DNA of 64,000 nucleotides from a virus. Taxonomy: Duplodnaviria > Caudoviricetes. The notes beneath the pieces were generated by a model, which was not told the DNA's origin, did not search any database, and was given only the letters and a program-made list of their open reading frames with translations. Numbering within the stretch: the stretch's first letter is position 1; every line of letters begins with the position of its first letter. A program made the translations under genes and the position numbers. Below are positions 13,058 through 58,571 of the stretch, one piece after another. The stretch lies in IMG/VR virus record IMGVR_UViG_3300005512_000003; one strand, 5' to 3'.

Positions 13058-13114
13058 GGGACACTTGAATAACTGTCACAGGGACCCCGCGGGGTCCCTT
13101 TGTCATGCTATAAT
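13058..13114 (+). promoter_or_regulatory. Early promoter: dyad box, stem-loop and TATAAT
   Basis: GGGACA-N10-TGTCAC (13058-13079), GC hairpin at 13080-13099, TG-C-TATAAT at 13109-13114. Confidence 0.7.
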
Positions 13115-13138
13115 ACATTCATGTTCAAAGGCACCTCT

Positions 13139-13198
13139 GTGATTCAACTTCGTCCTCATCAGATAGCAAGGGTTTCTAAAAAACTGCTAGGGGAATGA
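13139..13198 (+). pseudogene. Orphan duplicate of the helicase N-terminus
   Basis: GTG-IQLRPHQ followed by unrelated sequence and a stop. Matches MLTLRPHQ at 13901. Confidence 0.6.
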
Positions 13199-13202
13199 GA
13201 GA

Positions 13203-13263
13203 TAAATAATAGTGCTTTTATGTGTGGTAACTAAAAGCATAAGGGGCACTTTGCCCCTTTTTT
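13203..13263 (+). ncRNA. Putative small antisense RNA (late promoter core, hairpin, terminator)
   Basis: TAAATA 13203-08; stem TGCTTTTA/TAAAAGCA with an 11-nt loop; terminator AAGGGGCA-CTT-TGCCCCTT-TTTT. 13213-29 is complementary to 13289-13306. Confidence 0.55.
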
Positions 13264-13307
13264 ACTGTCTAAGTCTTATAAATATTACTACCACACATAA
13301 AAAGCAG

Positions 13308-13856
13308 ATGGAATACTACACTTACGCATATTTGCGTGAAGATGGAACACCCTATTATATTGGTAAAGGAAAATACCACAAAGGGTATAAGTATCATAGG
13401 ATGTCGCAGAAACACACTTGCGGTGTTCCTCCACAAAATAGAAGAATAGTGCTAAAAGATTATCTATCCTTAGAAGATTCTATAAAACACGAAGAATATA
13501 TGATAGACTTATATGGATTGATATGTGATGGGACGGGGATACTAAGAAACTTTGTAAGAGATAGTCGTGGTGGTAGTAGAAAAGGCAGAAAACTTTCAGA
13601 AGAAACTAAACAAAGAATGTCCCTTGCGATGAAAAAGCGGTGGGAAAAAGGATGCTATGATAATGAAGAATATAGAAACAAAATATCAGAAAGTAATAGG
13701 AATAGTCCAAGAGTTGTGAAACATAGTGAGGAAACAAAGACTAAGATAAGTAAGTCTGCTAAGGGAAGACAACAAAGTGAAGAGACAAGACGAAAAAGGT
13801 CTGAAAGTGTAAAGAGGTCTTGGACGCTTCGCAAAGCGGCACAGACCCTTGACTGA
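13308..13856 (+). CDS. GIY-YIG-family homing endonuclease with NUMOD3 repeats
   Basis: YYTYAYLREDGTPYYIGKG; conserved R, E (HEEYMI) and N (GILRN); three SEET(K/R) repeats; late promoter TATAAATA at 13277. Confidence 0.8.
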   Translation: MEYYTYAYLREDGTPYYIGKGKYHKGYKYHRMSQKHTCGVPPQNRRIVLKDYLSLEDSIKHEEYMIDLYGLICDGTGILRNFVRDSRGGSRKGRKLSEETKQRMSLAMKKRWEKGCYDNEEYRNKISESNRNSPRVVKHSEETKTKISKSAKGRQQSEETRRKRSESVKRSWTLRKAAQTLD

Positions 13857-13877
13857 GTGCCCTGAGGATGCTATAAT
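13821..13877 (+). promoter_or_regulatory. Early/sigma70-type promoter of the helicase, partly inside the endonuclease 3' end
   Basis: TGGACG-N10-CGGCAC box; TTGACT (13849)-17 nt-TATAAT (13872). Confidence 0.75.
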
Positions 13878-13900
13878 ACTTGTATTGATACGGAGACCTC

Positions 13901-15070
13901 TTGCTTACTCTTCGCCCGCACCAGCAGGACGCTACGGACGCTATGCTGGAGCATAAGAAAGGCACTATTGTTATTCCGACTGGTGGTGGAAAAACAATGT
14001 GTATGATTAAGTATTCGCTTGATTATTTTGACACTTATGACGCTGGCGTTATTGTAGTGGTCGCCCCCCGTCTGTTGCTGGCCGACCAACTCTGTGCTGA
14101 GTTTATGGAGTTTCACACAGATGTTGCGGTATTCCACGCACATAGTGGAGATACCAAGTATTCTAGCAGCACTCGCCCTGCTATTATTCACAACTGGAGT
14201 CAGCAAGCATATCGCAAACAACTTATTTTTACCACCTATCATTCTCTTCCTCGTTTGATGGAAGCAGAACTTGATGTTGATGTAATCCTGTTTGATGAAG
14301 CACATAACTCTGTGCAGAGAAACTTTTTCCCTGCTACGGAACACTTTGCTGCTGATTCTGATCGTTGCTATTTTTTCACTGCAACTCGCCGCACTTCTGC
14401 AACTATCTCCAAGCCTGGGATGAATGATGTTGCCGTTTATGGTGATGTTATTTACCGTGTTCCTGCTCCTAAACTGGTAAATGAGGGATATATCCTTCCT
14501 CCAGTCATTAAAGCGAAAAAGTTTGAGGTTCTTAAGGCAAATGAGATTTCTGCCGACCGTGACTGTAACAATATTATAGAAACTCTACAAGAAAACAGCA
14601 CCAGCAAAGTTCTTGTTTGCGTTAAGAGTGCTCGCCAACTTATCAACTTGATGTCTCAAACTGATTTTGCTACTCAACTGAATGATATGGGGTATTCTTA
14701 TCTTTATATCACCAGCAAGACGGGTGCAATCATTGATGGACAAAAAGTCAATCGTGAGGTTTTCTTTGATACTCTTAATGCTTGGGGCAAAGACCCTTCC
14801 AAGAAGTTTGTTTGTCTCCATCGCTCTATTTTGAGTGAAGGTATTTCTGTTAATGGTCTTGAGTCGGTTATTTTTCTTCGTAATATGGATGTGATTGAGA
14901 TGACCCAAACTATCGGAAGAGTTCTTCGCACCGCTCCTGATAAAACTTATGGTCTTTGTGTGGTGCCAGTGTATTCTCAAGTTGGTATTGCTACGGAGAA
15001 GCGTATGCAGAATGTTGTTGATACTGTTTTCGGTCGTGGTGAGATGCTTGATAGTGTAGTCAAGCGATAG
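13901..15070 (+). CDS. Superfamily 2 DEAD/DEAH-like helicase
   Basis: LRPHQ (Q motif), PTGGGKT, DEAH, TAT, SEGIS, QTIGRVLR. Confidence 0.9.
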   Translation: MLTLRPHQQDATDAMLEHKKGTIVIPTGGGKTMCMIKYSLDYFDTYDAGVIVVVAPRLLLADQLCAEFMEFHTDVAVFHAHSGDTKYSSSTRPAIIHNWSQQAYRKQLIFTTYHSLPRLMEAELDVDVILFDEAHNSVQRNFFPATEHFAADSDRCYFFTATRRTSATISKPGMNDVAVYGDVIYRVPAPKLVNEGYILPPVIKAKKFEVLKANEISADRDCNNIIETLQENSTSKVLVCVKSARQLINLMSQTDFATQLNDMGYSYLYITSKTGAIIDGQKVNREVFFDTLNAWGKDPSKKFVCLHRSILSEGISVNGLESVIFLRNMDVIEMTQTIGRVLRTAPDKTYGLCVVPVYSQVGIATEKRMQNVVDTVFGRGEMLDSVVKR

Positions 15071-15166
15071 ATATATGTGGGCAGCAACAGAAGTCTGGGG
15101 AGATAGATGTTGCGTAAGTCCCACACTTATGTTATACTAAATAGTAATAGTCATCCCCAGACTTCA

Positions 15167-15652
15167 ATGAAAGAATACTACACTTACGCATATTTGCGTG
15201 AAGACGGAACTCCCTACTATGTTGGTAAGGGTAAAGAAGATAGAGTATATAAAAAACATCGAGGACACACAGTTCCATCTAAAGATAGGATACTATTTCT
15301 AAAGAAAAATCTTACTGAAGAAGAAGCATATAAGCACGAAGTTTATATGATTGCAATACTTGGTAGGAAAGATATAAAGACTGGTATCTTACACAATAAA
15401 ACTGATGGTGGTTCTGGTGGAGATACTGGGTATCTTGGTTCTGAAGAACATAAAGAACTTATGAGAAAAAGGACAGGTGATAAGAATAGTTTTTACGGTC
15501 GCAAACACACTCCAGAGGCGCTAGAGCGTATCAGTAACGCTCTTAAGGGTAGAACCGCTTGGAACAAGGATAAGTGCCTTCCTGACGCGCAGGTGAGCGC
15601 ACACGCACTCTATATGAGAGAGTGGCGGATGAAGAACCGTCACAGGGGCTAG
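15167..15652 (+). CDS. GIY-YIG-family homing endonuclease with a NUMOD3 motif
   Basis: YYTYAYLREDGTPYYVGKG; HEVYMI; GILHNKTDGG; FYGRKHTPEALERIS. TAAATA at 15138. Confidence 0.8.
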   Translation: MKEYYTYAYLREDGTPYYVGKGKEDRVYKKHRGHTVPSKDRILFLKKNLTEEEAYKHEVYMIAILGRKDIKTGILHNKTDGGSGGDTGYLGSEEHKELMRKRTGDKNSFYGRKHTPEALERISNALKGRTAWNKDKCLPDAQVSAHALYMREWRMKNRHRG

Positions 15653-28142: not shown

Positions 28143-28165
28143 TGATTATTGGGCAGCATAAGTGA

Positions 28166-28226
28166 TAAATACTGATGCTTATGTTTGGCGACTAGGCAGA
28201 GAGAGGGGCAGAAATGTCCCTCTCTT
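28166..28226 (+). ncRNA. Putative small antisense RNA, same architecture as 13203-13263
   Basis: TAAATA 28166-71; stem TGCTTA/TAGGCA with an 11-nt loop; second hairpin AGAGAGGGGCA-GAAA-TGTCCCTCTCT. 28176-89 is complementary to 28242-56. Confidence 0.55.
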
Positions 28227-28257
28227 GTATAAATAACATCAGCCAAACATAAAGCAG

Positions 28258-28653
28258 ATGGAAGATGTATTTGCATCCTTAAGGGATGTTGTAGTTGATG
28301 AGAGCCGTTTTGTGCCAATTGAGGATGGATGGTCAGGTGATTGGATGTATTTTCAACCAGGTCATACGATAAACTTGGGAAGACCAACATCAGAACCACA
28401 AAAACAAAAAGCAAGAGAAAATGCACTCAAACGCAACGTAAATCAAAAGGGTGCTAATAATAGAAACGCAAAGACTTGGCGTGTTGTTTATATTGATGGG
28501 AGAGAGATTATCATAAAATCTATTCACGATTGGGCACAGAGGAATGGATACAGCAAGTCAGGCATTTACAATCTTAAAAACGGTTTATGGAAAAAGTACA
28601 AGGACCTTGTGGCAGTTGAGGAAGTGGCACAGGAGGCACCCACAGCACCCTGA
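28258..28653 (+). CDS. Homing-endonuclease-type DNA-binding protein (NUMOD-like), no recognisable nuclease domain
   Basis: GRPTSEPQKQK, KGANNRNAK, SIHDWAQRNGYSKSGIYNL (HTH-like). TATAAATA at 28228. Confidence 0.6.
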   Translation: MEDVFASLRDVVVDESRFVPIEDGWSGDWMYFQPGHTINLGRPTSEPQKQKARENALKRNVNQKGANNRNAKTWRVVYIDGREIIIKSIHDWAQRNGYSKSGIYNLKNGLWKKYKDLVAVEEVAQEAPTAP

Positions 28654-45575: not shown

Positions 45576-48500
45576 ATGGTAAAAAGAGTTAAAATCAGTT
45601 CCGTAATCGAGAGCCAACTCCCTGCATTTGTAAGGGAAGATTTTCCTCGTGTAGCAGAGTTTTTACAAGAATATTATAGATCTCTTGACAGTCAAAGTGG
45701 AACATTAGACCTTCTTCACAATATTGACAAATATGTCAAGGTTGAGGAGATGACAAACCTCAATCATGAGACGACATTGACATCTAATGTCTCAAGATTT
45801 GATAATACCATTGAAGTTGCTGATACAACTGATTTTCCTGAGACTTATGGTCTGATTCAGATTAACTCAGAAGTTATTACATACACTGGAAAAACATCTA
45901 CGTCGTTCACTGGGTGTGTTCGTGGTTTTTCTGGTATTACATCGTATAGAAGTCAAAATAAACCAGACTCTTTGGTTTTTTCTGACACTGCTATTGGTAA
46001 ACATTCTAGCGGTGCAACAGTTAAGAACCTTAGCACTTTATTCTTCAAAGAGTTTTTAAGAAAAACAAAAAATCAAGTAACTCCAGGATTTGAAGACCGA
46101 GAGTTATATTCTGGTATTAATCAAAACCTTTTCATAAAGCAGTCAAGGGATTTTTACGAATCAAAAGGTACTGATCAATCCTTTGAGATTCTTTTCCGCG
46201 CTTTGTATGGAAAGGATGTAGAAATACTGAAACCTAGGGATAATCTCTTTCAACCATCTGATGCTCAATACAGCGTTACTCAAGATTTAGTTGTAGAGGC
46301 AGTTACTGGGGACCCACTAAATCTTCAGAATAAAACTCTGTTTCAAGACGCTGGTTCTGGGTTTGAAGAAGCAAGAGGATCTGTAACCAAGTCTGAACAA
46401 TTCGTAAAAGATGGAAAGACTTACTACAAGTTAAGTCTTGACTACGACTTTGACAAAGATATTAACGTATTTGGATCTCTTTTTGGTGAATTTCAAGTTC
46501 ATCCAAAAACCAGAGTCATTACAGCAGTATCTGCTGGTGCTACTATTCTTGATGTTGATTCAACGGTAGGTTTTGGAACTAATGGAACTTTAGTTATTGA
46601 TAGTTCTGCTGGAACTGCTACTGAAGTCACATACACTTCAAAAACATTAAATCAGTTCTTTGGTTGTGCAAATGTCCCTGATGTTTTATCAGAAACTGAA
46701 GCAAGAACTAATGTTACTGCATATGGATATCAAGGTCCTGGTGCGACTAATCCTATTACTGTCAGAGTTGGTGCAGTTTTATCTGATATTGAGTTTGATC
46801 CCACTACAAATGGTCTTAAAGATAAAGATTCGCTAAAAATTGATTCTCTTGGAAAAAGAGCACTTGATAGCAAGTCAAACAACTGGATATTTAATATTCC
46901 TGCAGTTTATGATATAAAATCAGTAACTCTTGTTGATAGTTCAGACTTTACTTACAGATTCCAAACATTTGATGCTTTAACATTATATGATGGTGATTCT
47001 ATTGATGTATTGACTCAAACGGGTGTTAGAATCACGAGTCAAATAACTTCTATTGAAAATGAGAATACTTTTCAGGTAAGAGTTGGGCAGCAACTTATTG
47101 AAACCCAAAAACACACTATTTTTAAAAACCTGACAAAGGTAAACGCCACTAACTTTCCTCAAACAAACGACAATAACGCAAACGTTCAAAACGCATATCT
47201 TGATGGTAATGATGACCTTTATATTGCATCTCCATCACTTCCTGCATATTTCAGACAGGAGTTAAAGGTAAAGGATCGTTCCATTAGTTTTAGTGGAACG
47301 TATACCGATGCAGAAGTTATTGATATTGGGTTCCATGGACTATACACTGGGGACTCTGTTGTTTATATTCCAGGATCTGGAACAAATAAACTCAATATTG
47401 ATGCTGGAACTTATTTTGTAAAGAGAGTTTCTTCAAACGAAGTATCTCTGTATAGAAGTAGAGCAAATATCTTTAACAATGTCTTTATTGCCATTACTGG
47501 AACGGTAACTGATAACAAGTTTGAGTTGTTTAGACTTTCTGGTCAAACTTTAGAATCTCAAAAGTTAATCAGAAAGTTTCCACCACCAGAAGATAGTCAG
47601 TTTATCAACAAGACTACTGCTGGTCAAATTGGTATGTTGGTAAATGGTGTTGAGATTTTAAACTATAAGTCTCCAGACTCCATTTTCTATGGACCTATCG
47701 AAAATATTATTGTAACTTCTCCTGGTTCTGGTTATGATGTTGTAAATCCTCCAATATTGGGTATTACTGATCCTGTTGGTACTGCAGCGACAGGTTTGAT
47801 CGCGGTAGAGGGATCCTTTGAAGAAATACGAGTAGTTGATGGTGGATTTGACTATATTGGTACACCCGTAATCACAGTAACTGGTGGTGGGGGAAGAGGT
47901 GCTACGGCAGAAGCAGATATGCTCACTGTTAAGCACGTAAATAACTTCAATGCATTTGGAGATTCTGGTCGAGTTGACCTTAGCAATAATACGATTGGTT
48001 TCTCATCATTCCATAAGTTCAGAAATGGCGAGGCAGTAATATATTCTACTGGCGGTGCATCCAATGTTGGTGGAATCTCAACAGATTCTGAATATTTTGT
48101 ATCCACACTTGAGAGTGATACTTATATAAAACTTCACTATACTGAGTCAGATGCAATCGCTGGCATTAATACGGTTAATTTGACTTCATATGGTGAAGGA
48201 ACTCATTCTTTCACCGCAGTTAAGAGAAAGAGAGTTATCAACAGCATTAAAGTAACCAATGCTGGTTCTGGATATAAAAATAGAGCGATTCAAGTAAGTT
48301 CTAGCAATATTAACACATATTCTGATACCATCTTCTCAAAAAATCACGGATATTCTGATGGAGATCTTCTTGTTTATTCTTCGACTGGTATTTCCGCTGA
48401 TGGATTAGATGAGGGATCAAAATATTATGTGACTAGAGTTGATGGTGATAGTTTTAGATTGTCTCCTGTTGGAGTTGGTACTACAGTAGCAAAAGATTTT

Positions 48501-51500
48501 TATTTTACAACCAAACAACATATTAATATTACGGGTCAGGGAACTGGTACTCACTCATTTAACTATGAACCCATTGAAGTTAAAGTAGATGGTGTTATTG
48601 GTATTACAACATTCTCTGGTCAAGATTTTGATGCAAAACTGCAACCTATTGTAAGGGGTGAAATAACTGGGGTATCTTTGTCAAATAATGGTATTGGTTA
48701 TGGTAGCAGTGAAATCATTGGAGACAATAGACAACCATTATTTACTTTTAACAGAGGATCTGGTGCAATATTAGAACCAGTAGTTATTAATGGAACTATT
48801 ATTGAAGTTGTTATCAAATCTGGAGGATCTGGATATAACTCACCACCTTCTCTCACTGTTTTGGGTGATGGAGAAGGTGCCGAGTTAGTTCCAGTTATTA
48901 CTAATGGTGCAATCACCGACGTAGAGATTGCAAACAGTGGTTACAACTATACAAATAGTAAGACCAGTATTAGCATAACACCAGCTGGATCTGGTGCAGC
49001 ACTTCAGGCATCCATTAAGAACTGGGTAATCAACTTATTTGAAAGATCCCTGCAAGTTCCAAACATTACTGATGATGATGGATTTATCGCAGAAGGATTG
49101 AACCCAGAGTATGGTTTGCAATATTGCCACATTTATGCGCCAAGAAAGTTCAGACAAAATGTCTATAGAGAGGTTACTAGACTTGATAAGCAAGTTTTCG
49201 TTCCTGACCTTATCATTGATAGCACAACTTCTTCTGAAATAGCATCTAAAAATCACTCACCAATCATTGGATGGGCGTATGATGGTAATCCAATCTACGG
49301 ACCATATGGATATGATAAAGCAACTGGTGGAGTTGTCAGAGCAATGGTCTCTGGTTATGAAAGAGTAACACCTGATAATCGTCCCCCTGTAGGAAAGTTT
49401 CCAAAGGGATTCTTGATTGATGACTATACCTTCACTGGTAGTGGTGATCTTGACAAGTACAATGGCAGATTCTGCGTAACTCCAGAATATCCAAATGGTA
49501 CATATGCATATTTTGCCACCATTTCTAATGGTGCAGTGGAATCTGTTGGACCATTTAGAGGATACAAACTTCCTCAGTTCCCATATTTCATTGGTGATGA
49601 GTTTAGATCATCTCCGATAGATTTTAACTTTAAAAAGAATTCAAATCAAGATGACTTTGATGTCATTTCCAACAAACTTGTAAGAAATACAACTCCATAT
49701 AACACAAAGTCATCTACCCAAAGGTATCCATATTATCTTGATCCAACAACCATTCAAGAGCACAATAGTGTTATTGATGATGTCAAGGCAGGAAAGGTTG
49801 AGTCTGTTAAAGTTAAAAAAGAAGGTCTTGATTATAAAGTAGATGATATAGTTAGATTTGATAACTCTGGAACTAGTGGAAGACAAGCAGCTGCTAAAGT
49901 TTCAAGAATTAAAGGTGTAACTGTAACTGGAGTTGCAGTTTCCACAAAACAAATCACTGATATTGAGTTTAGTCAATCTGGAAGAACTGGAGTTCTTGTC
50001 GGTTATGCTACTCAACCACATGATTTTAAAAATAATGACGAAGTAACGATCAGTGGTCTTTCAACAACCAACACAGGTCTTCAAAGGTTTTTCTCCATTG
50101 AAGTTCCAAGAAATAGTCTTGTATTGAGGTCTGGCATCGGAACCACTGGTGCAACGGGCATGGTGACCTTTGTAAGCGTCTCTGGTGACCTTTCTGCTAT
50201 CGCTAGTGATGACGTTTATGTGCTTGGTGATGAGAAAGTTCGGGTCCTAAACGTTGACTCCAAGAGTTCTCGTTTGAGAGTTGAAAGAAAATATGGAGGC
50301 ACAACAGGTGCTGCACATACAGCAACAACATTTGTCACCGAAGATCCAAGAAGACTTTTTGTTAATGTTGGATATTCCGAAAAACTTGATCTGTTCCCAA
50401 ATGTCAAGCTGTATTTTGATCCAAAAGAAACGTTTGCACAACAATCTGTAGGAGTTGCATCAACTAACATTGTTTCAGTTTCTTTTGCAAATCCAGGTTC
50501 TGGTGCAACATCTGTCTCTTTAACTGCATCACAACTTTACATTCCAAATCACGGATTGAGAACTAACAGTAAGTTACTCTATAATGCAAATGGTTCAGAT
50601 GGAATCAGAGTTTCACTTGCTCTCACATCTCAGTTTGGAACTGGATTTAACGTTGGATTCAATACATTTACTCTTGCAGATAACTCCATAGTATATGCTG
50701 CAAGATTCTCTAATGATATTATTGGCATCGCTACAAATCCTATTGTTACAAATAATGCTGGAGGATTTGTTGGAATCGGATCCACAACACAAGGATTATT
50801 ATTCTTTGAGGGTTATGGGTCAGGAGATAAGCATAGTTTAGTAACCGATTATTCCAATACACTTTCTGGACTGATTAATAGAAATGTTGTAACTGTTTCT
50901 ACAGCATCAACTCATAACTTGGTTGCAAATGAAACTGTAAAACTTGACGTTTTCCCAGGAATAACAACAACTATCAAGTTGTCTTATAATGAAGTAGCAA
51001 GAAGAGTCGTTGGAAACAGACTTAACTTTGTTAAAACTGCGGTTGATTTGCTTGAGAATACAATAACGATTGAAAATCATGGATTTGTAACAGGACAAAA
51101 AGTAATATATCAATCTGCACTTTCATCTGCAGATAGAATTATTGATTCAGATACTACTGTTGATGTACCTACCGTTTTCCCATCTCCTCTTGAGGTAGAA
51201 AAACCATTTACTCTTAGGGCAACATTAAATGGTGTTATTATTGTTGACGCTGATGCTATTCCTAGCAACAGCATCTTCTACGTTGTTGTTGAAGACTACA
51301 ATACGATTAAACTTGCATCTACTTATTACAATGCAGTAAAGAGCAATCCAGAAATTGTTGATATGATCTCCAATACTTTTGGTGATCTTGCTCCTATCAA
51401 TCCTCCTGTCGCACTTATTAGAAATCAAACTGTAGAGTTTGATCTTTCAGATTCTTCATTGTCTTACAGAAGAGGATCTATTGATTATCCTGCATTTGAG

Positions 51501-54500
51501 TTTAACCTTTTCACAGATTCAAACTTTAAAAATAAGTTCTTCTCAAGTACTGCTACATCAAACTTTGAAGTAACGTCTACAGGAAAAATTGGAACATCTG
51601 GTGCTAAAGTTTCTGTATTAGTATCAGATAATCTGCCTAAGAATCTTTATTATAAGTTGGATCCTGTTGATGTAATAAACACTCCAGAATCTAAACAGCA
51701 AATATTAGTTGATGATGAGAATGTACCCAATAACAATGCCATCATTATTACAACTAGTATATTCAGTGGTAATCATAGAGTCACTGGAGTCGGTACAACT
51801 TCTATTCAGTATAATGTTCTACTAAGACCTGAAAAAGAAAGTTATAATAGATCTGAAGCAGTCATGACATATGATACTGCTTCAAGAAGAGCTATTGGAC
51901 CTATCAGTGAGGTTTCTGTAAGAAGTGGAGGCAGGGGATATGAAGTTCTTCCTGCAATCACAAGTATTGGATCTACATGGGGAAGAAATGCAATATTAGA
52001 ACCAACATCAGATTCTATTGGTAGAGTCAAATCTTATTGCATTAATGACATTGGATTTGATTATCCATCTGATCCAACTTTAAGACCAACTCTAAACATT
52101 CCTCAGGTTCTAAAACTGGAACCTCTAACCACTATTGAGAGAATTGGAATAACCTCAGTTGGAGTTGGATACGGAATCGCTCCAGACTTAGTTTTCATTG
52201 ATGGTAATACTGGAAAAGTTGTAGACGTTGATCTATCTTATAATATTGGAGATCGTTTCGTAACTATTCGCAAGAATAGCACCGAAATATACAATACAAC
52301 TCCAGCGATTATTCCCATCAATAATACAAATGGTGTTGGTATTAGTTCTATATTCTATGATAGTGGATTAAAAACTGTTGAGATAATCTTAGATACAGTT
52401 GGTTATAGCACCTCCAGTGCATTCCCATTTGATGTTGGGGACAAAGTTTTTATTGAAAATGTAAGTGTTGGTGTTGGTAGTACTGGAAAAGGATTCAACT
52501 CTGTAAACTATGAGTATAAGTTGTTCACTGTTACATCAACCGATCCAAACATAGGTGGAGCAGAACCAAGAGTTAAGTATAGTCTTGATGGCGACTTAAC
52601 TGATGGAAAAGTACCTGGATTGTTTGATGCTGCCAACTCTGCTGGTAGAATCATTCCAGAAAAATATTTCCCCATCTTTAATGTAACTCTTAGAAAAAAC
52701 ACCTTTATTGAAGGTGAAACGATAAAGAGTGGATCAAAAGAAGGTATTGTTGAAAGTTGGAACTTTAGAGGAGATGACCTGAACGTAAGAGTTACCTCTG
52801 ATGATTTCTTTGAAGTTAATGATACTGTAAGAGGAACTACAAGTGGTTCTGTTGCAGCGATATCATCTAATAAGATGTATAAGGCGAACTATACAACAAA
52901 AGCAACAAGTATCGTCGAAAATGGATTCAATCAAGATACTGGAGTCCTGAACCTTGATTTACAAAGACTTCACGATAATGATTATTATCAGTATTTCTCA
53001 TACTCTGTAAAATCAGAAGTAGATCTTGAAGATTGGGACAATGCTGTAAGTGCTCTCGATCACACTGCTGGATTTAAGAAGTTTAGTGATCTTCAACTGG
53101 TATCTGCAGGTGCAACTGATAGAGATGGAAACTCTGGTATTAGAACAGACCAAAATGATGGTGACTTCTTAGGAATTGCCAACATTGATCAAGAGATTGA
53201 TCTTAACTGTGTCAATGATTTTGATTTGGCGACAGAGAATAACATCTTTATTGATGGTCAAGTTCGTTCCGATGAAATAATTCTAAACTCTAGAGAGATT
53301 CAAGATTACTTTGAATCTGTTGGAAACAGAGTTCTGATGATTGACGACATCAGTGATCAGTTCAATGACAGACCAAGACCTACAAGATACTCAGTTATTG
53401 ATGAGTTCCCCATTGTTGGCGACAACGTAATCAGAGCAAGGAAGTATCTCCTCTTCATTCGCGACAGAAGATTTACTGAAACTAGAGAAAACATCTTTGT
53501 TTCTATTCTTCACGACAATACTTTTGGATATCTTAACCAGTATGGTCGAGTTGAAACTGTCGAAGATATGGGTTACTTCGACTTTGATATTGTCAATGGA
53601 AATGGAAGACTTTTGTTCTACCCTGAAAAGTTCAGAGTAAACAACTTTGATATTACATTTACCGCATATGGTGTTAAAGATGGAATTCTTGGTGTCGGCG
53701 CAACAGCACTTGGTGATGTAGCTGAAATCAGAACAACTCAGGTTGGTGTTGAAACTGGAAAAGTAACTCCTATTGTTTCTATTGCAAACACTTATAGGGC
53801 GTCTAAACTCCTGATTGAGATTACTACTGATGATCAACGTTATGAATTTGATGAGTTCACTCTCATCCACGATGGAAATAACAACTGCGGTGAGATTGAA
53901 GCAGTAGAATATGCTCAGTTAACCACTCACTCTCGCGATGATGCAAGTAGTGTTGGTCTTGGAACTTACAGTCTTGTATGTGGTGCAGGAAACACTCAAT
54001 CTTATGATGTTGGTTTAAGCACAGCATTGTTTGCTACTCTGACTGGTTTCTCCACTGCTGTTAGCGGAACTGGTATTGGAACTGATGGCGGATTCTCAAT
54101 CGGACAGCACCTCAAAATCACAGGAACAACTGGCATAGGAACTTCGGCAAGAGTTGCTATATCAACCGCCTTGGATCTTCAAACAGTAGACACATTTGTG
54201 TTAACTGGTGTTGCTGGTAATGATAACAATGGTGGTTCACGACCAATGACCGCTATTGGTAGAAATGAATCTTTGAAACTTCAATATAGCACTAATGGAG
54301 GAACAACTTTTGTCGGTCTTGGTACGATTATTGGATCAACAGATGTTTCTGCTCCTCTCAGGACATATGAGATTTCACTTCCAACTGAAGCAAGAACATC
54401 TTCAACCATTATTAGACTTGAGCAACCAACTTCAAATGGTGGCACTGATGATGAGTTTGGTATTACTCATATTGGATTTACCAATACAACCATTGAACAA

Positions 54501-57500
54501 AATGATATTGTAGTTAACTTCCACCCATATGCTGGAGTTGCTTGCACGGTTGATGTTTTAAGAGTATCCATTGCTGACACCACAGCAACTGGTATTGGTA
54601 CAACCACTCTTAATACTGCTATTATTGATTCTCACTATACATCCATTGCATCTACTGACTCTCCTGTAGCAAATGTCGTTGCAACCTATGATGCTACTGT
54701 CTACAACGGTGGTTACTACATTGTAACTGTTGAAGACCTTACAAATGGATGGTCTCAGGTTTCTGAGTTGATGGTTGCAAACAACGAAGAGTTCAACAAT
54801 ATCACCGAGTTTGGTGAGATTATCACTATGGTAACTCTTGGTGAGTTTGGTGTACAAAGGACCGCAGACACCGTTCAGGTGACCTTTGAACCCAATCCAG
54901 ACGCTGATATGGAGGTCAGAGTCTTCCAGAACGCAATGCGCCTTGTAGATCCTCTGAACGGGGTTACAACGATTGATCTGAATCAGGGTACAGTTCAAAC
55001 AGGAGCAGCAGAATACTTCGGAACTGAAAATGATATTAAGCGTTCCTTTGAGTTAACTCATCAGTCACGCCCAATCTTTAGAAGAGTAATTAATCCAACT
55101 GCTGCAGGTATTGTAAGTATAACTGATAATACTATCAGAATACCCCAAAACTTCTTCGTAACTGGTGAGGAGGTAGAGTACACTGCAGCTGATAGGTTCA
55201 TTCAACCAGATCCTATCGGAATTGCCACAACCACTATTGCTGGCGTATCTACGGATAAGTTGCCATCTACTCTTTATATTGTAAAGGTTGATGAGTTAAA
55301 TGTTCAGGTTGCTGCTAGTGCTTCAGAGGCATTATCAGTTCCTCCATCAGTATTAGACATCACTTCTGTTGGTGTTGGAACGATTCATAGATTTGATGCT
55401 AAGAAGCAAAAAACGAAAGGTCTGATTGCTCTTGACAATATGATTCAGTCTCCTATTGCAGACACTAGTGTCTCAGTGGGTCTTGTCACAACAGTTCGAC
55501 CAACTACCGACAGAATCACTCTTTCTGGAATCACTTCAATCTTTGCTGGCGATCTACTACAGATAAATGATGAGATTATGAGAGTTGCCACGGTTGGCGT
55601 GGGAACAACAAATGTACTGATTGTTAACAGACCTTGGATGGGTACTGGACTTGGTACTCACCAGAGTGGTGACACCGTTACGAAGATTATTGGTAACTAT
55701 AACATTCAGGATAACCAACTTCACTTTGCTGCAGCACCTTACGGAGCATATCCTCTCAGCACGACTAGTGGATCCGTAGATGAAAGAGATTGGACAGGAG
55801 TTACTACACATACCACCTTTAGTGGAAGAATCTTCACTAGAACTTCTCAAGAAGGATCTGATCTTGAACCATATACTTACAACACAATTTTTGATGATAT
55901 CTCAGAAGAGTTCAATGGTATCACAACATCATTTGTTCTCACCTCTGGTAAAAACAACGTAACAAACGTTGCTGAAGATAATGGCATTGTTCTCATTAGA
56001 GACATCTATCAAGGTCCAAGAAGAGCAGATGATATTGTTGTTATTGGTGGAGATTATGAACTAACTGAAGGATCTGGTATTACCACTGCAATATTCCAAG
56101 AACAAGATCTTGGAGTTAAGTATGATAATAACACAAACAAGATACCCCGTGGTGGTCTGATTGTTTCTGTTGGTTCAACACAAAGTCGTGGTTATCAACC
56201 TCTGATTGGTGCAGGAGCAACTGCTACTGTATCTGGTGGGGCAATCACTACTATTTCTATTGGAAACACTGGTTCTGGTTACAGAGAATGGTATGGAACT
56301 GAAACTTTAGTTCGTGCATATAATCCAGTTACTGGAACTTCTTCAACTGTTGGTGTAGCAACAGTATTTGATGGACATATTACTGGAGTAAGATTAGATT
56401 CTCCAGGAACTGGATATTCATCAGCAGATCTCCCAACTATTTCAATTGATCCCCCAGCAGGATATGCAAGTATCCCAATGGTATACTCCAATGATTATCC
56501 AAATAATAGTGGAGTTGGAACTGGTTTAGTTGTTGATATAACGGTCGGACAAGGTTCAACTGTCATTGATTTTGATATTGTAAACTATGGATTTGGATAT
56601 AGGCAGGGAGACATTCTCACTATTCCTAGAACTGGTATTGGAAGTATACCTCTGGACAGTGGCATTGGACATATTGAGTTTACTCTTACTGTACAAAAAA
56701 CTTATAAGGATGAGTTTAGTGGGTGGGCTCTTGGAAACTTCCAAAGGTTTGATGATATTTCGGACCTCTTTAACGGGTTTAGAACAGAGTTCCCAATCAA
56801 GATTAATGGAGTAAGAACTTCTATCCGTGCAAGAACTGGTTCTCAACTAGACGTTCAGGCATCACTGCTTGTTTTCATTAATGATATTTTACAAGTTCCT
56901 GGTGAAGGTTACATCTTTAATGGTGGTTCTACTATCACCTTTACAGAAGCTCCTATGGGATATGACGCAAGTGCTCCATATAATGGAGATACTGTCAAGA
57001 TTATATTCTACAGAGGCACAAAAGATGTTGACGTTGTTTTCGTAGACATCCTTGAGACTATTAAAGTAGGTGATACTGTTGAACTTTATGATGACTATCC
57101 CGTCTATGATGAGGATCCAAGACTTGTTGTTGATATCACTGCAACAGATACATTAGAAACCAATGTATATCCTGGTCCTGGAATATCAACAGATCTCTCA
57201 TATAAGAGAGCACTGCAATGGTGCAGACAAACTGAAGATTTGATTATTAATGATCAACCTGTTGCTAAAGATAGAGAAATCTACAAGGCACTTGTAAACC
57301 CAGCAGCTGCTATTCTTCAGGATGTTGGTGTTGGTGATACAACAATCTATGTTGAGAACGTTAAGACTTTCTTTGATAGCACCAAAGAAAATGCACAAAA
57401 CCTTATTGAGAACACTATTGAGATTATTGACCAAGACGCAGTATGTGCTGCCGCTGCTACCGCTGTAGTATCTGCTGCTGGAACCATCTCTTCCATCGTT

Positions 57501-58571
57501 CTTACAGATCCAGTAACTGGACTTGGAACCACTGGTGCTGGTGGTGCTGGATATCTTGCTGCACCAGATGTATCAATATCCCTTCCAACAGGAATCGGTA
57601 CAACTGGAAGAGCGGAAGCAACTGCTAATATCAGTAATGGTATTGTAACTAGCTTTACGATTACAAATCCAGGTTATGGGTATACATTTACCAATGTTCC
57701 TTTAGTAATGATATCCGAACCAGAATCTCACAAAGAGACTGTTCTTGGTAAAGGGTATAGTGGTGATTTTGGTGTTATTGTTGGTATTGCAACTACAACA
57801 ATCGTTGGAACTGCAACTACTGGCGTCAAAGGTTTGGTTCTCAATCTTGACATTGAAGATGACTCATTCTTGCGTGATCCAGATTACGTTGGAACTGCAA
57901 TCAGTGAGACTAGAATAGAGGTTGGAGACTACTTCGCTATCAGTAACTCCAACTTGGGACTTGGATTGACTGCACTTAGATATGGCGATGGTTCTGTTAT
58001 CAGTTATGGATCTACATTCTTTGATGGAATCTATCAGGTTGCTAATGTTGCGTATGGATCTTCTTTAGCAGGAACTCTTATTGAAGAAACTCGTTATGTA
58101 ACCATTGATCCAGAAATATTTGATAGTCCTGTTGTGGTTGGTCCAAATGACCCAGATGGAACTCTAATAACAGCACCACTATATACCTTTAGCATAACAG
58201 AAACCATTGACAGTCCAGTAGAAATTGACACTTCTTCCACTGCAAGAGTCTTGAATGGAGTAACAATCACTATTGATGATATTGCTAGAACATCTCTGAT
58301 TCTCACAGAGACTGGAAGAGCAATTATTGGTGATAGAGTTCCTTCAAGAATCACAGTTCGTGTTGAAGACTTTAATGGAGTTGAAACTCAATATCATCCA
58401 GGAAGTTACAAGGGTAGATTCTACGGTGATTATAGTTGGGGTAAGATTGACATTCCTACAAGGACTTCTACAAGAGACTTTGTTGGATATGCAACCGAAG
58501 GTTATGTCGGACTTTCCTCTTCACCATTCGTAAGAAGAAAGAATCCACTTAAGACTATCAACTATCTTTGA
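45576..58571 (+). CDS. gp7: Giant baseplate wedge initiator gp7-like protein (4331 aa)
   Basis: Position between gp6 and gp8; QLPAFV...FL.EYY; FY.SKGT..SF..LFR.LYG; YYQYFSY...HTAG. Confidence 0.85.
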   Translation: MVKRVKISSVIESQLPAFVREDFPRVAEFLQEYYRSLDSQSGTLDLLHNIDKYVKVEEMTNLNHETTLTSNVSRFDNTIEVADTTDFPETYGLIQINSEVITYTGKTSTSFTGCVRGFSGITSYRSQNKPDSLVFSDTAIGKHSSGATVKNLSTLFFKEFLRKTKNQVTPGFEDRELYSGINQNLFIKQSRDFYESKGTDQSFEILFRALYGKDVEILKPRDNLFQPSDAQYSVTQDLVVEAVTGDPLNLQNKTLFQDAGSGFEEARGSVTKSEQFVKDGKTYYKLSLDYDFDKDINVFGSLFGEFQVHPKTRVITAVSAGATILDVDSTVGFGTNGTLVIDSSAGTATEVTYTSKTLNQFFGCANVPDVLSETEARTNVTAYGYQGPGATNPITVRVGAVLSDIEFDPTTNGLKDKDSLKIDSLGKRALDSKSNNWIFNIPAVYDIKSVTLVDSSDFTYRFQTFDALTLYDGDSIDVLTQTGVRITSQITSIENENTFQVRVGQQLIETQKHTIFKNLTKVNATNFPQTNDNNANVQNAYLDGNDDLYIASPSLPAYFRQELKVKDRSISFSGTYTDAEVIDIGFHGLYTGDSVVYIPGSGTNKLNIDAGTYFVKRVSSNEVSLYRSRANIFNNVFIAITGTVTDNKFELFRLSGQTLESQKLIRKFPPPEDSQFINKTTAGQIGMLVNGVEILNYKSPDSIFYGPIENIIVTSPGSGYDVVNPPILGITDPVGTAATGLIAVEGSFEEIRVVDGGFDYIGTPVITVTGGGGRGATAEADMLTVKHVNNFNAFGDSGRVDLSNNTIGFSSFHKFRNGEAVIYSTGGASNVGGISTDSEYFVSTLESDTYIKLHYTESDAIAGINTVNLTSYGEGTHSFTAVKRKRVINSIKVTNAGSGYKNRAIQVSSSNINTYSDTIFSKNHGYSDGDLLVYSSTGISADGLDEGSKYYVTRVDGDSFRLSPVGVGTTVAKDFYFTTKQHINITGQGTGTHSFNYEPIEVKVDGVIGITTFSGQDFDAKLQPIVRGEITGVSLSNNGIGYGSSEIIGDNRQPLFTFNRGSGAILEPVVINGTIIEVVIKSGGSGYNSPPSLTVLGDGEGAELVPVITNGAITDVEIANSGYNYTNSKTSISITPAGSGAALQASIKNWVINLFERSLQVPNITDDDGFIAEGLNPEYGLQYCHIYAPRKFRQNVYREVTRLDKQVFVPDLIIDSTTSSEIASKNHSPIIGWAYDGNPIYGPYGYDKATGGVVRAMVSGYERVTPDNRPPVGKFPKGFLIDDYTFTGSGDLDKYNGRFCVTPEYPNGTYAYFATISNGAVESVGPFRGYKLPQFPYFIGDEFRSSPIDFNFKKNSNQDDFDVISNKLVRNTTPYNTKSSTQRYPYYLDPTTIQEHNSVIDDVKAGKVESVKVKKEGLDYKVDDIVRFDNSGTSGRQAAAKVSRIKGVTVTGVAVSTKQITDIEFSQSGRTGVLVGYATQPHDFKNNDEVTISGLSTTNTGLQRFFSIEVPRNSLVLRSGIGTTGATGMVTFVSVSGDLSAIASDDVYVLGDEKVRVLNVDSKSSRLRVERKYGGTTGAAHTATTFVTEDPRRLFVNVGYSEKLDLFPNVKLYFDPKETFAQQSVGVASTNIVSVSFANPGSGATSVSLTASQLYIPNHGLRTNSKLLYNANGSDGIRVSLALTSQFGTGFNVGFNTFTLADNSIVYAARFSNDIIGIATNPIVTNNAGGFVGIGSTTQGLLFFEGYGSGDKHSLVTDYSNTLSGLINRNVVTVSTASTHNLVANETVKLDVFPGITTTIKLSYNEVARRVVGNRLNFVKTAVDLLENTITIENHGFVTGQKVIYQSALSSADRIIDSDTTVDVPTVFPSPLEVEKPFTLRATLNGVIIVDADAIPSNSIFYVVVEDYNTIKLASTYYNAVKSNPEIVDMISNTFGDLAPINPPVALIRNQTVEFDLSDSSLSYRRGSIDYPAFEFNLFTDSNFKNKFFSSTATSNFEVTSTGKIGTSGAKVSVLVSDNLPKNLYYKLDPVDVINTPESKQQILVDDENVPNNNAIIITTSIFSGNHRVTGVGTTSIQYNVLLRPEKESYNRSEAVMTYDTASRRAIGPISEVSVRSGGRGYEVLPAITSIGSTWGRNAILEPTSDSIGRVKSYCINDIGFDYPSDPTLRPTLNIPQVLKLEPLTTIERIGITSVGVGYGIAPDLVFIDGNTGKVVDVDLSYNIGDRFVTIRKNSTEIYNTTPAIIPINNTNGVGISSIFYDSGLKTVEIILDTVGYSTSSAFPFDVGDKVFIENVSVGVGSTGKGFNSVNYEYKLFTVTSTDPNIGGAEPRVKYSLDGDLTDGKVPGLFDAANSAGRIIPEKYFPIFNVTLRKNTFIEGETIKSGSKEGIVESWNFRGDDLNVRVTSDDFFEVNDTVRGTTSGSVAAISSNKMYKANYTTKATSIVENGFNQDTGVLNLDLQRLHDNDYYQYFSYSVKSEVDLEDWDNAVSALDHTAGFKKFSDLQLVSAGATDRDGNSGIRTDQNDGDFLGIANIDQEIDLNCVNDFDLATENNIFIDGQVRSDEIILNSREIQDYFESVGNRVLMIDDISDQFNDRPRPTRYSVIDEFPIVGDNVIRARKYLLFIRDRRFTETRENIFVSILHDNTFGYLNQYGRVETVEDMGYFDFDIVNGNGRLLFYPEKFRVNNFDITFTAYGVKDGILGVGATALGDVAEIRTTQVGVETGKVTPIVSIANTYRASKLLIEITTDDQRYEFDEFTLIHDGNNNCGEIEAVEYAQLTTHSRDDASSVGLGTYSLVCGAGNTQSYDVGLSTALFATLTGFSTAVSGTGIGTDGGFSIGQHLKITGTTGIGTSARVAISTALDLQTVDTFVLTGVAGNDNNGGSRPMTAIGRNESLKLQYSTNGGTTFVGLGTIIGSTDVSAPLRTYEISLPTEARTSSTIIRLEQPTSNGGTDDEFGITHIGFTNTTIEQNDIVVNFHPYAGVACTVDVLRVSIADTTATGIGTTTLNTAIIDSHYTSIASTDSPVANVVATYDATVYNGGYYIVTVEDLTNGWSQVSELMVANNEEFNNITEFGEIITMVTLGEFGVQRTADTVQVTFEPNPDADMEVRVFQNAMRLVDPLNGVTTIDLNQGTVQTGAAEYFGTENDIKRSFELTHQSRPIFRRVINPTAAGIVSITDNTIRIPQNFFVTGEEVEYTAADRFIQPDPIGIATTTIAGVSTDKLPSTLYIVKVDELNVQVAASASEALSVPPSVLDITSVGVGTIHRFDAKKQKTKGLIALDNMIQSPIADTSVSVGLVTTVRPTTDRITLSGITSIFAGDLLQINDEIMRVATVGVGTTNVLIVNRPWMGTGLGTHQSGDTVTKIIGNYNIQDNQLHFAAAPYGAYPLSTTSGSVDERDWTGVTTHTTFSGRIFTRTSQEGSDLEPYTYNTIFDDISEEFNGITTSFVLTSGKNNVTNVAEDNGIVLIRDIYQGPRRADDIVVIGGDYELTEGSGITTAIFQEQDLGVKYDNNTNKIPRGGLIVSVGSTQSRGYQPLIGAGATATVSGGAITTISIGNTGSGYREWYGTETLVRAYNPVTGTSSTVGVATVFDGHITGVRLDSPGTGYSSADLPTISIDPPAGYASIPMVYSNDYPNNSGVGTGLVVDITVGQGSTVIDFDIVNYGFGYRQGDILTIPRTGIGSIPLDSGIGHIEFTLTVQKTYKDEFSGWALGNFQRFDDISDLFNGFRTEFPIKINGVRTSIRARTGSQLDVQASLLVFINDILQVPGEGYIFNGGSTITFTEAPMGYDASAPYNGDTVKIIFYRGTKDVDVVFVDILETIKVGDTVELYDDYPVYDEDPRLVVDITATDTLETNVYPGPGISTDLSYKRALQWCRQTEDLIINDQPVAKDREIYKALVNPAAAILQDVGVGDTTIYVENVKTFFDSTKENAQNLIENTIEIIDQDAVCAAAATAVVSAAGTISSIVLTDPVTGLGTTGAGGAGYLAAPDVSISLPTGIGTTGRAEATANISNGIVTSFTITNPGYGYTFTNVPLVMISEPESHKETVLGKGYSGDFGVIVGIATTTIVGTATTGVKGLVLNLDIEDDSFLRDPDYVGTAISETRIEVGDYFAISNSNLGLGLTALRYGDGSVISYGSTFFDGIYQVANVAYGSSLAGTLIEETRYVTIDPEIFDSPVVVGPNDPDGTLITAPLYTFSITETIDSPVEIDTSSTARVLNGVTITIDDIARTSLILTETGRAIIGDRVPSRITVRVEDFNGVETQYHPGSYKGRFYGDYSWGKIDIPTRTSTRDFVGYATEGYVGLSSSPFVRRKNPLKTINYL

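What the first reader, a model, noticed from the sequence alone, without database searches (positions are those of the whole stretch)
13203..13310. Candidate sRNA-controlled endonuclease cassette, copy 1: antisense RNA gene directly upstream of its target
Seen: TAAATA (13203), a hairpin (8-bp stem, 11-nt loop TGTGTGGTAAC), a GC terminator with U-tract (13241-63), a second late promoter TATAAATA (13277), a leader and the ATG (13308). The 5' arm plus loop (TGCTTTTATGTGTGGTA) is complementary, with one bulge, to TACCACACATAAAAAGCA just before the start codon. Established: T4 I-TevI-type endonucleases are silenced by a cis hairpin over the RBS that late transcripts lack. Difference here: the antisense segment has its own promoter core, fold and terminator. 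Inference: a separate ~50-nt trans-acting antisense RNA, antitoxin-like with a loop-exposed seed, that limits nuclease translation. Best candidate for an undescribed system in this window.
Basis: partly seen in the sequence, partly recalled or inferred. Interest (0 to 1): 0.85.

Follow-up and report, generated by a model that had tools for sequence, protein, structure and literature searches.

The report
Two-promoter RNA control module of cyanophage endonucleases
A conserved control region in front of a cyanophage homing-endonuclease gene carries a segment complementary to the gene's own leader; it can silence the gene by folding back on it, and it also has every sequence mark of a separate ~50-base antisense RNA, a kind of control not yet described for such genes.

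Summary
It is not chance. The same layout occurs in 43 distinct cassettes from T4-like cyanophage contigs, behind about 30 different upstream flanks.

The order is: late-promoter-like octamer P1, exactly 4 nt, hairpin 1, intrinsic terminator, TATAAATA (P2), leader, ATG.

- The 5' arm has two mutually exclusive partners, and both covary. One is the leader (20 of 23 modelled pairs show double changes). The other is a local 3' strand that forms hairpin 1 (6 of 6).
- Any transcript that reads through the terminator folds into the long-range, start-blocking form. This is the minimum-energy fold in 43 of 43 cassettes, by 12.6 kcal/mol on average. That part is the known T4 I-TevI/segB/mobE logic.
- The cis model does not explain three things: an invariant P1 hexamer at fixed spacing, a covarying hairpin 1, and a terminator. 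Together these look like a gene for a ~50-nt late RNA (13214-13263). Its loop and 5' stem strand are complementary to the first ~17 nt of the P2 mRNA.

No RNA data exist for any phage carrying the module, so action in trans is inferred, not shown. My reading is cis silencing plus a real trans-acting small RNA, at about 0.5; cis only is about 0.35. It is a new variant of a known kind. First readers of this scan noted the same layout in this genome and in one other genome.

The parts
13201..13208 (+). P1: late-promoter-like octamer GATAAATA. Predicted +1 at 13214 if the T4 rule holds (octamer at -13 to -6).
   Evidence: the TAAATA is present in all 43 cassettes (for L042b), with variable bases on both sides and a fixed 4-nt spacer. 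The same octamer types lie 13-39 nt upstream of tail and baseplate genes in this window. T4 rule from PMC2988020.
13213..13239 (+). Hairpin 1: 8-bp stem (13213-13220 with 13232-13239) and 11-nt loop (13221-13231). The 5' stem strand plus 9 loop nt (13213-13229) form the anti-leader.
   Evidence: Covariation in alignment A6: 95.7% of cells paired, 6 of 6 pairs with double changes, many G-U pairs valid only on this strand.
13241..13265 (+). Intrinsic terminator (8-bp G+C-rich stem, 3-nt loop, T run).
   Evidence: The helix covaries in the family (helix 5, helix 2). It forms in both conformers.
13214..13263 (+). Predicted ~50-nt late RNA (hairpin 1 plus terminator hairpin). Inferred, not observed.
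   Evidence: Fold -20.3 kcal/mol, z -4.3. All 41 family members tested fold the same way.
13277..13284 (+). P2: consensus late promoter TATAAATA inside the long-range loop. Predicted +1 at 13290.
   Evidence: near-invariant across the family.
13289..13306 (+). Leader / 3' arm. It is complementary to 13213-13229 with one bulged A and ends 1 nt before the ATG.
   Evidence: On its own the P2 mRNA has an unpaired leader and start.
13308..13856 (+). Endonuclease gene (182 aa). It has a GIY-YIG-type N-terminal motif and NUMOD3 repeats.
   Evidence: Pfam NUMOD3 E 3.5e-9. PHROG 314 and 655 'homing endonuclease'. 174 relatives in IMG/VR. The Pfam GIY-YIG model itself was not matched.
28164..28260 (+). 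Copy 3 of the same module (P1, hairpin 1, terminator with a weak T run, P2, leader) with different arm sequences. It sits in front of ORF 28258-28653.
   Evidence: (75.5 bits). The ORF lacks the nuclease N-terminus and matches no family.
15090..15169 (+). Copy 2: the plain T4-type version. Arms are 15090-15101 and 15154-15165, around ACTAAATA at 15136-15143; ATG at 15167. It has no P1, no terminator and no local partner strand.
   Evidence: -31.3 kcal/mol, z -4.2. A homologous arrangement occurs in phage Sf-CH5.

Best explanation
This is the regulatory head of a mobile homing-endonuclease cassette of T4-like cyanophages. It controls the nuclease at three levels with one anti-leader segment (13213-13229).

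1. The terminator (13241-13265) stops most transcripts that enter from upstream.
2. On transcripts that read through, the anti-leader folds back on the leader (13289-13306). This buries the region from -1 to -18 and blocks initiation. P2 lies inside that loop, so late P2 transcripts lack the anti-leader and can be translated. This is the T4 I-TevI/segB/mobE principle.
3. P1, hairpin 1 and the terminator form a transcription unit of their own for a ~50-nt late RNA. Its loop exposes about 9 nt complementary to the extreme 5' end of the P2 mRNA. Pairing would start there and spread into the 5' stem strand by displacing the local partner. The resulting duplex of about 17 bp ends 1 nt before the ATG and throttles nuclease translation in trans. 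The 3' ends of terminated upstream mRNAs carry the same element.

Shown: the sequence elements, both alternative helices with covariation, and the energetics. Inferred: that P1 fires, that the short RNA accumulates, and that it acts in trans.
For: Spread and association
- The architecture is present in 43 distinct cassettes behind about 30 different upstream flanks.
- One arm class alone gives 112 IMG/VR stretches. Of the 80 fetched as loci, 77 were analysable and 76 of those continue into P2, a matching leader and an ORF.

Anti-leader and leader
- 96.2% of cells are paired, against 70% in shuffles and 40-55% when partners are slid. 20 of 23 pairs show double changes.
- RNAalifold finds the same helix on an unfitted MAFFT alignment, with 9 of 10 pairs compensated.
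- The long-range fold is the minimum-energy structure in 43 of 43 read-through RNAs, 12.6 kcal/mol better on average.
- The P2 mRNA alone has a free leader.

For a separate RNA
- The P1 TAAATA is present in all 43 cassettes, while the two bases before it and the 4-nt spacer vary. There is no indel in the spacer.
- P1 octamer types equal those in front of baseplate and tail genes in this window and fit T4 and Aeh1 late-promoter variants (PMC2988020).
- Hairpin 1 covaries independently of the leader, with G-U pairs.
- Both arms begin at the fifth nt after their octamer, that is at the predicted +1 give or take 1 nt.
- A median of 10 duplex pairs fall in the hairpin-1 loop.
- Cognate duplexes average -21.3 kcal/mol against -11.5 for non-cognate, and co-resident cassettes are orthogonal.
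- Plain cassettes that have only the arms lack P1, the terminator and the local strand together.
- P1 arrived with the inserted DNA: homology with the uninterrupted S-SRM01 helicase gene ends at 13162/13163, 38 nt left of P1.
Against: - No RNA evidence of any kind. No Rfam family matches, and I found no transcriptome or small-RNA report for a phage carrying the module.
- The cis mechanism alone explains the arm/leader covariation.
- In 24 of 43 cassettes one of the two TAA triplets of TAAATAA is the stop codon of the upstream ORF. So part of P1's conservation could serve translation termination, or could mark a recombination junction at resident late promoters.
- A sister group (L017, L033, L034, L038) has P1, a terminator and P2 but no anti-leader. 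P1 plus terminator can therefore exist without an antisense role.
- The pair counts for both helices were made on alignments fitted to the tested structures.
- The sequences are related, so shuffle controls overstate significance.
Confidence: 0.5

Rival explanations
1. Cis only. The module is a T4-type translational silencer strengthened by a terminator. The anti-leader works only within read-through transcripts. P1 is kept because it supplies stop codons, or because it is the footprint of insertion at late-promoter microhomology. Hairpin 1 merely helps folding, termination or 3'-end stability of upstream mRNAs. Any short P1 RNA is a by-product.
For: - This is the known mechanism for I-TevI, I-TevII, I-TevIII, segB and Aeh1 mobE (PMC2988022), and similar hairpins with TATAAATA were reported for marine endonuclease genes (PMC2677866).
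- The long-range fold is the minimum-energy structure in 43 of 43.
- P1 overlaps the upstream stop codon in 24 of 43.
- The first two octamer positions vary with the flank, as expected for a junction inside TAAATA.
- The L017 group keeps P1 and the terminator without an anti-leader.
Against: - It does not explain why hairpin 1's 3' strand covaries with the arm (6 of 6 pairs, G-U variants). That strand competes with the silencing fold.
- It does not explain why all six bases of TAAATA are invariant when only three serve as a stop, and in 16 of 43 none does.
- It does not explain the spacer of exactly 4 nt without indels, while the rest of the module is full of indels.
- In this window P1 came in with the insert rather than being resident.
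Confidence: 0.35
2. P1 and hairpin 1 serve another function. Options are a small RNA with other targets (host or phage), a DNA-level operator for autorepression by the endonuclease (as I-TevI binds its own late promoter), or a recombination site that moves the cassette.
For: - I-TevI autorepression at an operator overlapping its late promoter is established (PMC2988022).
- P1 and P2 regions share the TAAATA core plus an A/T-rich spacer.
- The cassette sits in about 30 contexts with its left edge at the octamer.
Against: - G-U pairs in hairpin 1 and in the long-range helix point to selection on the + strand RNA, not on DNA.
- The only good match to the anti-leader in the window is its own leader.
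- Own leaders are the best or tied-best target for 31 of 43 modules.
- Solo modules without the gene are rare: 1 remnant in 77.
Confidence: 0.1
3. Chance inverted repeat in A+T-rich intergenic DNA, with no function.
For: A+T-rich phage spacers hold many short repeats. Promoter and terminator scans are consensus matches only.
Against: - z -4.5 to -6.3 against dinucleotide shuffles.
- Conservation with compensatory changes in 43 cassettes.
Confidence: 0.01

Closest known systems
T4-type translational control of homing endonuclease genes (I-TevI, I-TevII, I-TevIII, segB, Aeh1 mobE; review PMC2988022)
   Same: - An inverted repeat whose 3' arm covers the translation start.
- A late promoter between the arms, so that only late transcripts can be translated.
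- The gene is a homing endonuclease of a T4-like phage.
- Copy 2 of this window (15090-15169) is exactly this plain form.
   Different: - A strong terminator lies inside the loop.
- A second, upstream late-promoter octamer sits at a fixed 4-nt distance from the 5' arm.
- The 5' arm has a second, local, covarying partner (hairpin 1).
- There is no Shine-Dalgarno sequence; the duplex covers an A-rich leader from its predicted 5' end to -2.
Hairpins with TATAAATA upstream of marine GIY-YIG and Vsr-like endonuclease genes in 'fractured genes' (Dassa et al. 2009, PMC2677866)
   Same: Same ecological source (marine metagenomes, phage-like loci), same gene class, and a hairpin enclosing a T4-like late promoter with two complementary conserved motifs.
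   Different: That paper describes a single cis hairpin. Its text has no occurrence of 'terminator', and none of the passages read mentions an upstream second promoter, an alternative local helix or a separate RNA.
IS10/Tn10 RNA-OUT and RNA-IN antisense control of transposase (my own knowledge, not checked here)
   Same: A stem-loop RNA whose loop pairs with the extreme 5' end of the mRNA of a mobile-element gene. Pairing then spreads into the stem and covers the start region.
   Different: RNA-OUT is encoded on the opposite strand overlapping its target. Here the antisense segment is an upstream inverted repeat on the same strand with its own tandem promoter, so it can also act in cis on read-through RNA.
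CfrI antisense RNA of cyanophage S-PM2 (Millard et al. 2010, as summarised in PMC12197685)
   Same: A non-coding RNA of a T4-like cyanophage associated with a homing endonuclease gene.
   Different: CfrI is about 225 nt and is listed as a cis-type antisense RNA encoded between psbA and the F-CphI gene. It has no sequence or architectural likeness to this module.

Membership tests
T4-type RBS-sequestering hairpin of homing endonuclease genes | Inverted repeat whose 3' arm covers the translation initiation region | tested here: met
   The duplex 13213-13229 with 13289-13306 ends 1 nt before the ATG. It is conserved with covariation.
T4-type RBS-sequestering hairpin of homing endonuclease genes | Late promoter lies between the arms, so late transcripts lack the 5' arm | tested here: met
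   TATAAATA at 13277-13284 lies inside the loop and is near-invariant in the family. Met by sequence only; promoter activity is not shown.
T4-type RBS-sequestering hairpin of homing endonuclease genes | Repression acts in cis on early or middle read-through transcripts | not testable with these tools
   Only the energetics are available: the long-range fold is the minimum-energy structure in 43 of 43.
T4-type RBS-sequestering hairpin of homing endonuclease genes | A Shine-Dalgarno sequence is the sequestered element | tested here: not met
   There is no GGAG-like element in 13289-13307. The leader is A-rich.
Antisense small RNA regulator (discrete transcript) | Own promoter and own terminator flank a short non-coding unit | tested here: inconclusive
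   The P1 motif and the terminator are conserved at fixed geometry. No RNA data are available.
Antisense small RNA regulator (discrete transcript) | Stable stem-loop that exposes target-complementary bases in the loop | tested here: met
   Hairpin 1 is present in 41 of 41 folded units. A median of 10 duplex pairs fall in the loop. The stem covaries.
Antisense small RNA regulator (discrete transcript) | Acts in trans on a separate mRNA molecule | not testable with these tools
   This needs a reporter with compensatory mutations.
Cis-encoded antisense RNA (IS10 RNA-OUT, CfrI type) | Encoded on the strand opposite to its target | tested here: not met
   The antisense segment lies upstream on the same strand. 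G-U pairs fit the + strand only.
Transcription attenuator / riboswitch-like terminator switch | The alternative pairing includes or disrupts the terminator helix | tested here: not met
   The terminator helix is intact in both conformers.
Any Rfam family | Match at gathering score | tested here: not met
   0 matches in the whole window.

The most novel reading that the evidence does not exclude
T4-like cyanophages carry a large family of same-strand, tandem-late-promoter small RNAs (about 50 nt). Each is specific for the leader of its own homing-endonuclease mRNA and throttles nuclease translation in trans.

The many arm 'alleles' would then be specificity classes. They would keep several cassettes in one genome independent, and could let a resident cassette silence the matching nuclease of a co-infecting phage.
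Probability: 0.45. Interest if true: 0.78.

Novelty: new variant of a known kind. Interest (0 to 1): 0.62.

Why it matters
Homing endonucleases are the main mobile genes of T4-like phages, and how they are kept harmless is a standing question. The known answer is a cis hairpin plus late promoter.

This module adds a terminator and what looks like a dedicated antisense RNA, and it is common: more than 100 hits for one arm class alone in IMG/VR. If the short RNA is real, it would be:
- the first small-RNA control of a homing endonuclease;
- a rare case of an antisense regulator encoded as a same-strand upstream repeat;
- a natural set of orthogonal RNA/leader pairs.

It can be tested directly in culturable phages (B3/B23, S-B68).

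Tried and rejected
- **Rfam:** scan of the whole window, no family.
- **Own genome:** not held, so other copies outside the window could not be searched.
- **Literature:** searches for cyanophage transcription start sites, small RNAs, or endonuclease hairpins with a terminator found no description of this module. The isolates that carry relatives are S-SRM01, B3/B23, S-B68, Sf-CH5, ACG-2014f, S-N03, RN05-S and MC09. None of them turned up in those searches with a transcript map.
- **Solo modules:** I looked for modules without an endonuclease gene, which would have suggested an anti-homing immunity element. Only one truncated remnant (L123) appeared among 77 analysable hits, so that idea has no support.
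- **Attenuator model:** rejected, because the terminator helix is untouched by the alternative pairing.
- **Coding reading:** the GTG at 13212 opens a frame into the nuclease ORF. I rejected it because, on my reading of the aligned sequences, the frame is not kept in relatives, and because the region evolves by RNA-type compensatory changes.
- **Stop-codon-only explanation of P1:** rejected as sufficient, because 16 of 43 cassettes have the upstream stop elsewhere.
- **Protein identity:** the Pfam GIY-YIG models were not reached (best LEM-3 GIY-YIG E 0.006, on copy 2 only). PDB sequence search gave only a non-significant match to the I-TevI DNA-binding domain (E 0.31). The nuclease fold therefore rests on the N-terminal motif plus PHROG and NUMOD3 hits.
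- **L017 group:** tested for an anti-leader, none found.

Full report
**What is in the sequence**

The window comes from a T4-like cyanophage. DNA hits are weak and go only to Synechococcus myoviruses of the Kyanoviridae. Neighbouring ORFs are tail-fibre and baseplate genes.

- GATAAATA at 13201-13208;
- an 8-bp hairpin (13213-13220 with 13232-13239) with an 11-nt loop;
- a G+C-rich terminator at 13241-13265;
- TATAAATA at 13277-13284;
- an 18-nt leader at 13289-13306;
- the ATG at 13308.

The ORF is 182 aa. It has NUMOD3 repeats and matches PHROG homing-endonuclease families.

The 5' stem strand plus nine loop bases (13213-13229) are complementary to the leader, with one bulged A. Folding the whole region gives the long-range pairing, not the local hairpin, as the minimum-energy structure (-33.2 kcal/mol, z -4.5; -41 kcal/mol, z -6.3 for 13214-13340). 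The piece from 13214 to the terminator folds on its own as two hairpins (-20.3, z -4.3). The RNA predicted from the second promoter has a fully unpaired leader and start.

**The three copies in the window**

- Copy 3 (28164-28260) has the same layout with different arm sequences. Its ORF lacks the nuclease N-terminus.
- Copy 2 (15090-15169, in front of a 43%-identical paralogue) is the plain T4 form: two arms around ACTAAATA, with no upstream octamer, no terminator and no local partner strand.

**The family**

A search of IMG/VR with the endonuclease gave 174 relatives. Among the 80 fetched loci plus phages B3 and S-B68 and secondary hits, I collected 43 distinct modules with one architecture. 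The order is: an octamer NATAAATA or NCTAAATA (P1), exactly 4 nt, a 5' arm that usually starts TGC, a loop, a local 3' strand (hairpin 1), a terminator, TATAAATA (P2), about 4 nt, the leader, ATG.

They sit behind about 30 unrelated upstream flanks. A pattern for just one arm class finds 112 stretches in IMG/VR. Of the 80 fetched as loci, 77 were analysable, and 76 of those continue into P2, a matching leader and an ORF. The module is therefore part of a mobile endonuclease cassette, not a feature of this locus.

In this window it arrived with the insert. The uninterrupted helicase gene of phage S-SRM01 matches the window up to 13162, and the window then diverges, 38 nt left of P1.

**Two mutually exclusive helices, both under selection**

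A covariance model with the long-range helix and the terminator aligned 43 modules. 96.2% of cells are paired, against 70% in column shuffles and 40-55% with slid partners. 20 of 23 pairs show changes on both sides. RNAalifold on the unfitted MAFFT alignment recovers the same helix, with 9 of 10 pairs compensated.

A second model with hairpin 1 and the terminator gives 95.7% paired cells for hairpin 1. All six modelled pairs have double changes, and many are U-G or G-U variants that work only on the + strand RNA.

Caveats: both alignments were fitted to the tested structure, and the sequences are related, so the shuffle counts are not probabilities. The slid-partner control and the unfitted alignment agree with the result, though.

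In every one of the 43 modules the read-through RNA prefers the long-range form, by 12.6 kcal/mol on average. Cognate anti-leader/leader duplexes average -21.3 kcal/mol against -11.5 for non-cognate pairs. Modules that share a genome are orthogonal, including copies 1 and 3 here.

**The upstream octamer**

In the structural alignment the TAAATA of P1 is present in all 43 modules. The one apparent exception was a misaligned row; its octamer is at L042:2952-2959. The two bases before the hexamer and the four after it vary, and the spacer has no indel, although the rest of the module is rich in indels.

The octamer types used (GATAAATA, AATAAATA, NCTAAATA) are the same ones that lie 13-39 nt upstream of baseplate and tail genes in this window. 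They fit the tolerated T4 variants (A at -13) and the Aeh1 consensus (a/g then C at -13/-12) (PMC2988020).

By the T4 rule (octamer at -13 to -6), P1 would start an RNA at 13214, the second base of hairpin 1. P2 would start the mRNA at 13290, the second base of the leader arm. Both arms begin at the fifth base after their octamer across the family. The predicted short RNA is thus complementary from its 5' end to the mRNA from its 5' end. A median of 10 duplex pairs lie in the hairpin-1 loop, and the duplex ends 1 nt before the ATG.

**What argues for caution**

- In 24 of 43 modules the upstream ORF stops in one of the two TAA triplets of TAAATAA. Part of the conservation could therefore serve termination of translation, or could mark a junction at resident late promoters. 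The first two octamer bases do change with the flank.
- A sister group (L017, L033, L034, L038) has P1, a long terminator and P2 but no anti-leader.
- No Rfam family matches.
- I found no transcriptome or small-RNA report for any phage with the module.
- Nothing here can show that P1 fires, that the RNA accumulates, or that it acts in trans.

**Mechanism**

The cis part is the established logic of I-TevI, I-TevII, I-TevIII, segB and Aeh1 mobE (PMC2988022). It was already noted, as a single hairpin with TATAAATA, for marine endonuclease genes (PMC2677866). That logic needs only two arms and P2, as in copy 2. It does not need an invariant upstream late-promoter octamer at fixed spacing, a covarying local partner that competes with the silencing fold, or a terminator. 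These three features occur together, and together they are absent from the plain cassettes.

The simplest reading is that they make a ~50-nt late RNA, and that terminated upstream mRNAs end in the same element. Its loop seeds pairing with the 5' end of the P2 mRNA. This works like IS10 RNA-OUT on RNA-IN, but the antisense segment is encoded on the same strand, so the one segment serves in cis and in trans.

I put this dual reading at about 0.5, cis only at about 0.35, another role for P1 and hairpin 1 at about 0.1, and chance at about 0.01.

**Novelty and verdict**

Gene class, late promoter and RBS-blocking hairpin are known. The two-promoter, two-hairpin module with alternative covarying helices is not described in the papers I could read, and it is widespread. 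It is a new variant of a known kind.

First readers of this scan noted the same layout in this genome and in one other genome. Those notes were unchecked and gave no added evidence.

Noticed in passing
window 13105-13199 and 13846-13960: The cassette split off an orphan 5' end of the DEAD/ResIII helicase gene: a promoter-like TGCTATAATAC plus a short ORF ending at 13199. A recoded second copy of the promoter and gene start follows the nuclease gene (TTGACT-17-TATAAT at 13849-13877, partly inside the nuclease 3' end). Phage S-SRM01 has the uninterrupted gene; homology breaks at 13162/13163.
   Followed up: partly
window 28258-28653: The ORF behind module copy 3 shares only the first residues (ME) with the nucleases. 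It lacks the nuclease N-terminal motif and matches no Pfam or PHROG family. It is possibly a degenerate endonuclease that kept only the DNA-binding part, still behind an intact control module.
   Followed up: partly
L004, L005, L008 (IMG/VR loci), about 60 nt before the start codon: The closest protein relatives of the window's nuclease (72-75% identity) carry the plain hairpin type without P1 or a terminator. The window's control module is shared with nucleases that are only 40-48% identical. Control head and ORF therefore appear to be exchanged as separate modules.
   Followed up: no
L017, L033, L034, L038 (about 110 nt before the start codon): A sister cassette type with P1, a long compound terminator and P2 but no complementarity to the leader. 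The T run of the terminator instead pairs with the first bases after P2.
   Followed up: partly
L042:2952-3066: A second cassette on the same contig, in front of a different GIY-YIG subfamily. Only the hairpin-1 loop (15 nt) is complementary to the leader, not the stem strand, and the duplex ends about 8 nt before the ATG.
   Followed up: no
L123:2789-2850: A remnant with P1 and hairpin 1 only, running into unrelated sequence. This was the single solo case among 77 analysable hits. L085, L101 and L160 have intact modules in front of truncated nuclease ORFs.
   Followed up: no
window 45576-58571: A single 4331-aa ORF lies between baseplate genes, followed directly by TGATAAATA and a baseplate wedge gene. 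Stop codons overlapping late-promoter octamers are a recurrent syntax in this window (18066, 19694, 58572).
   Followed up: no
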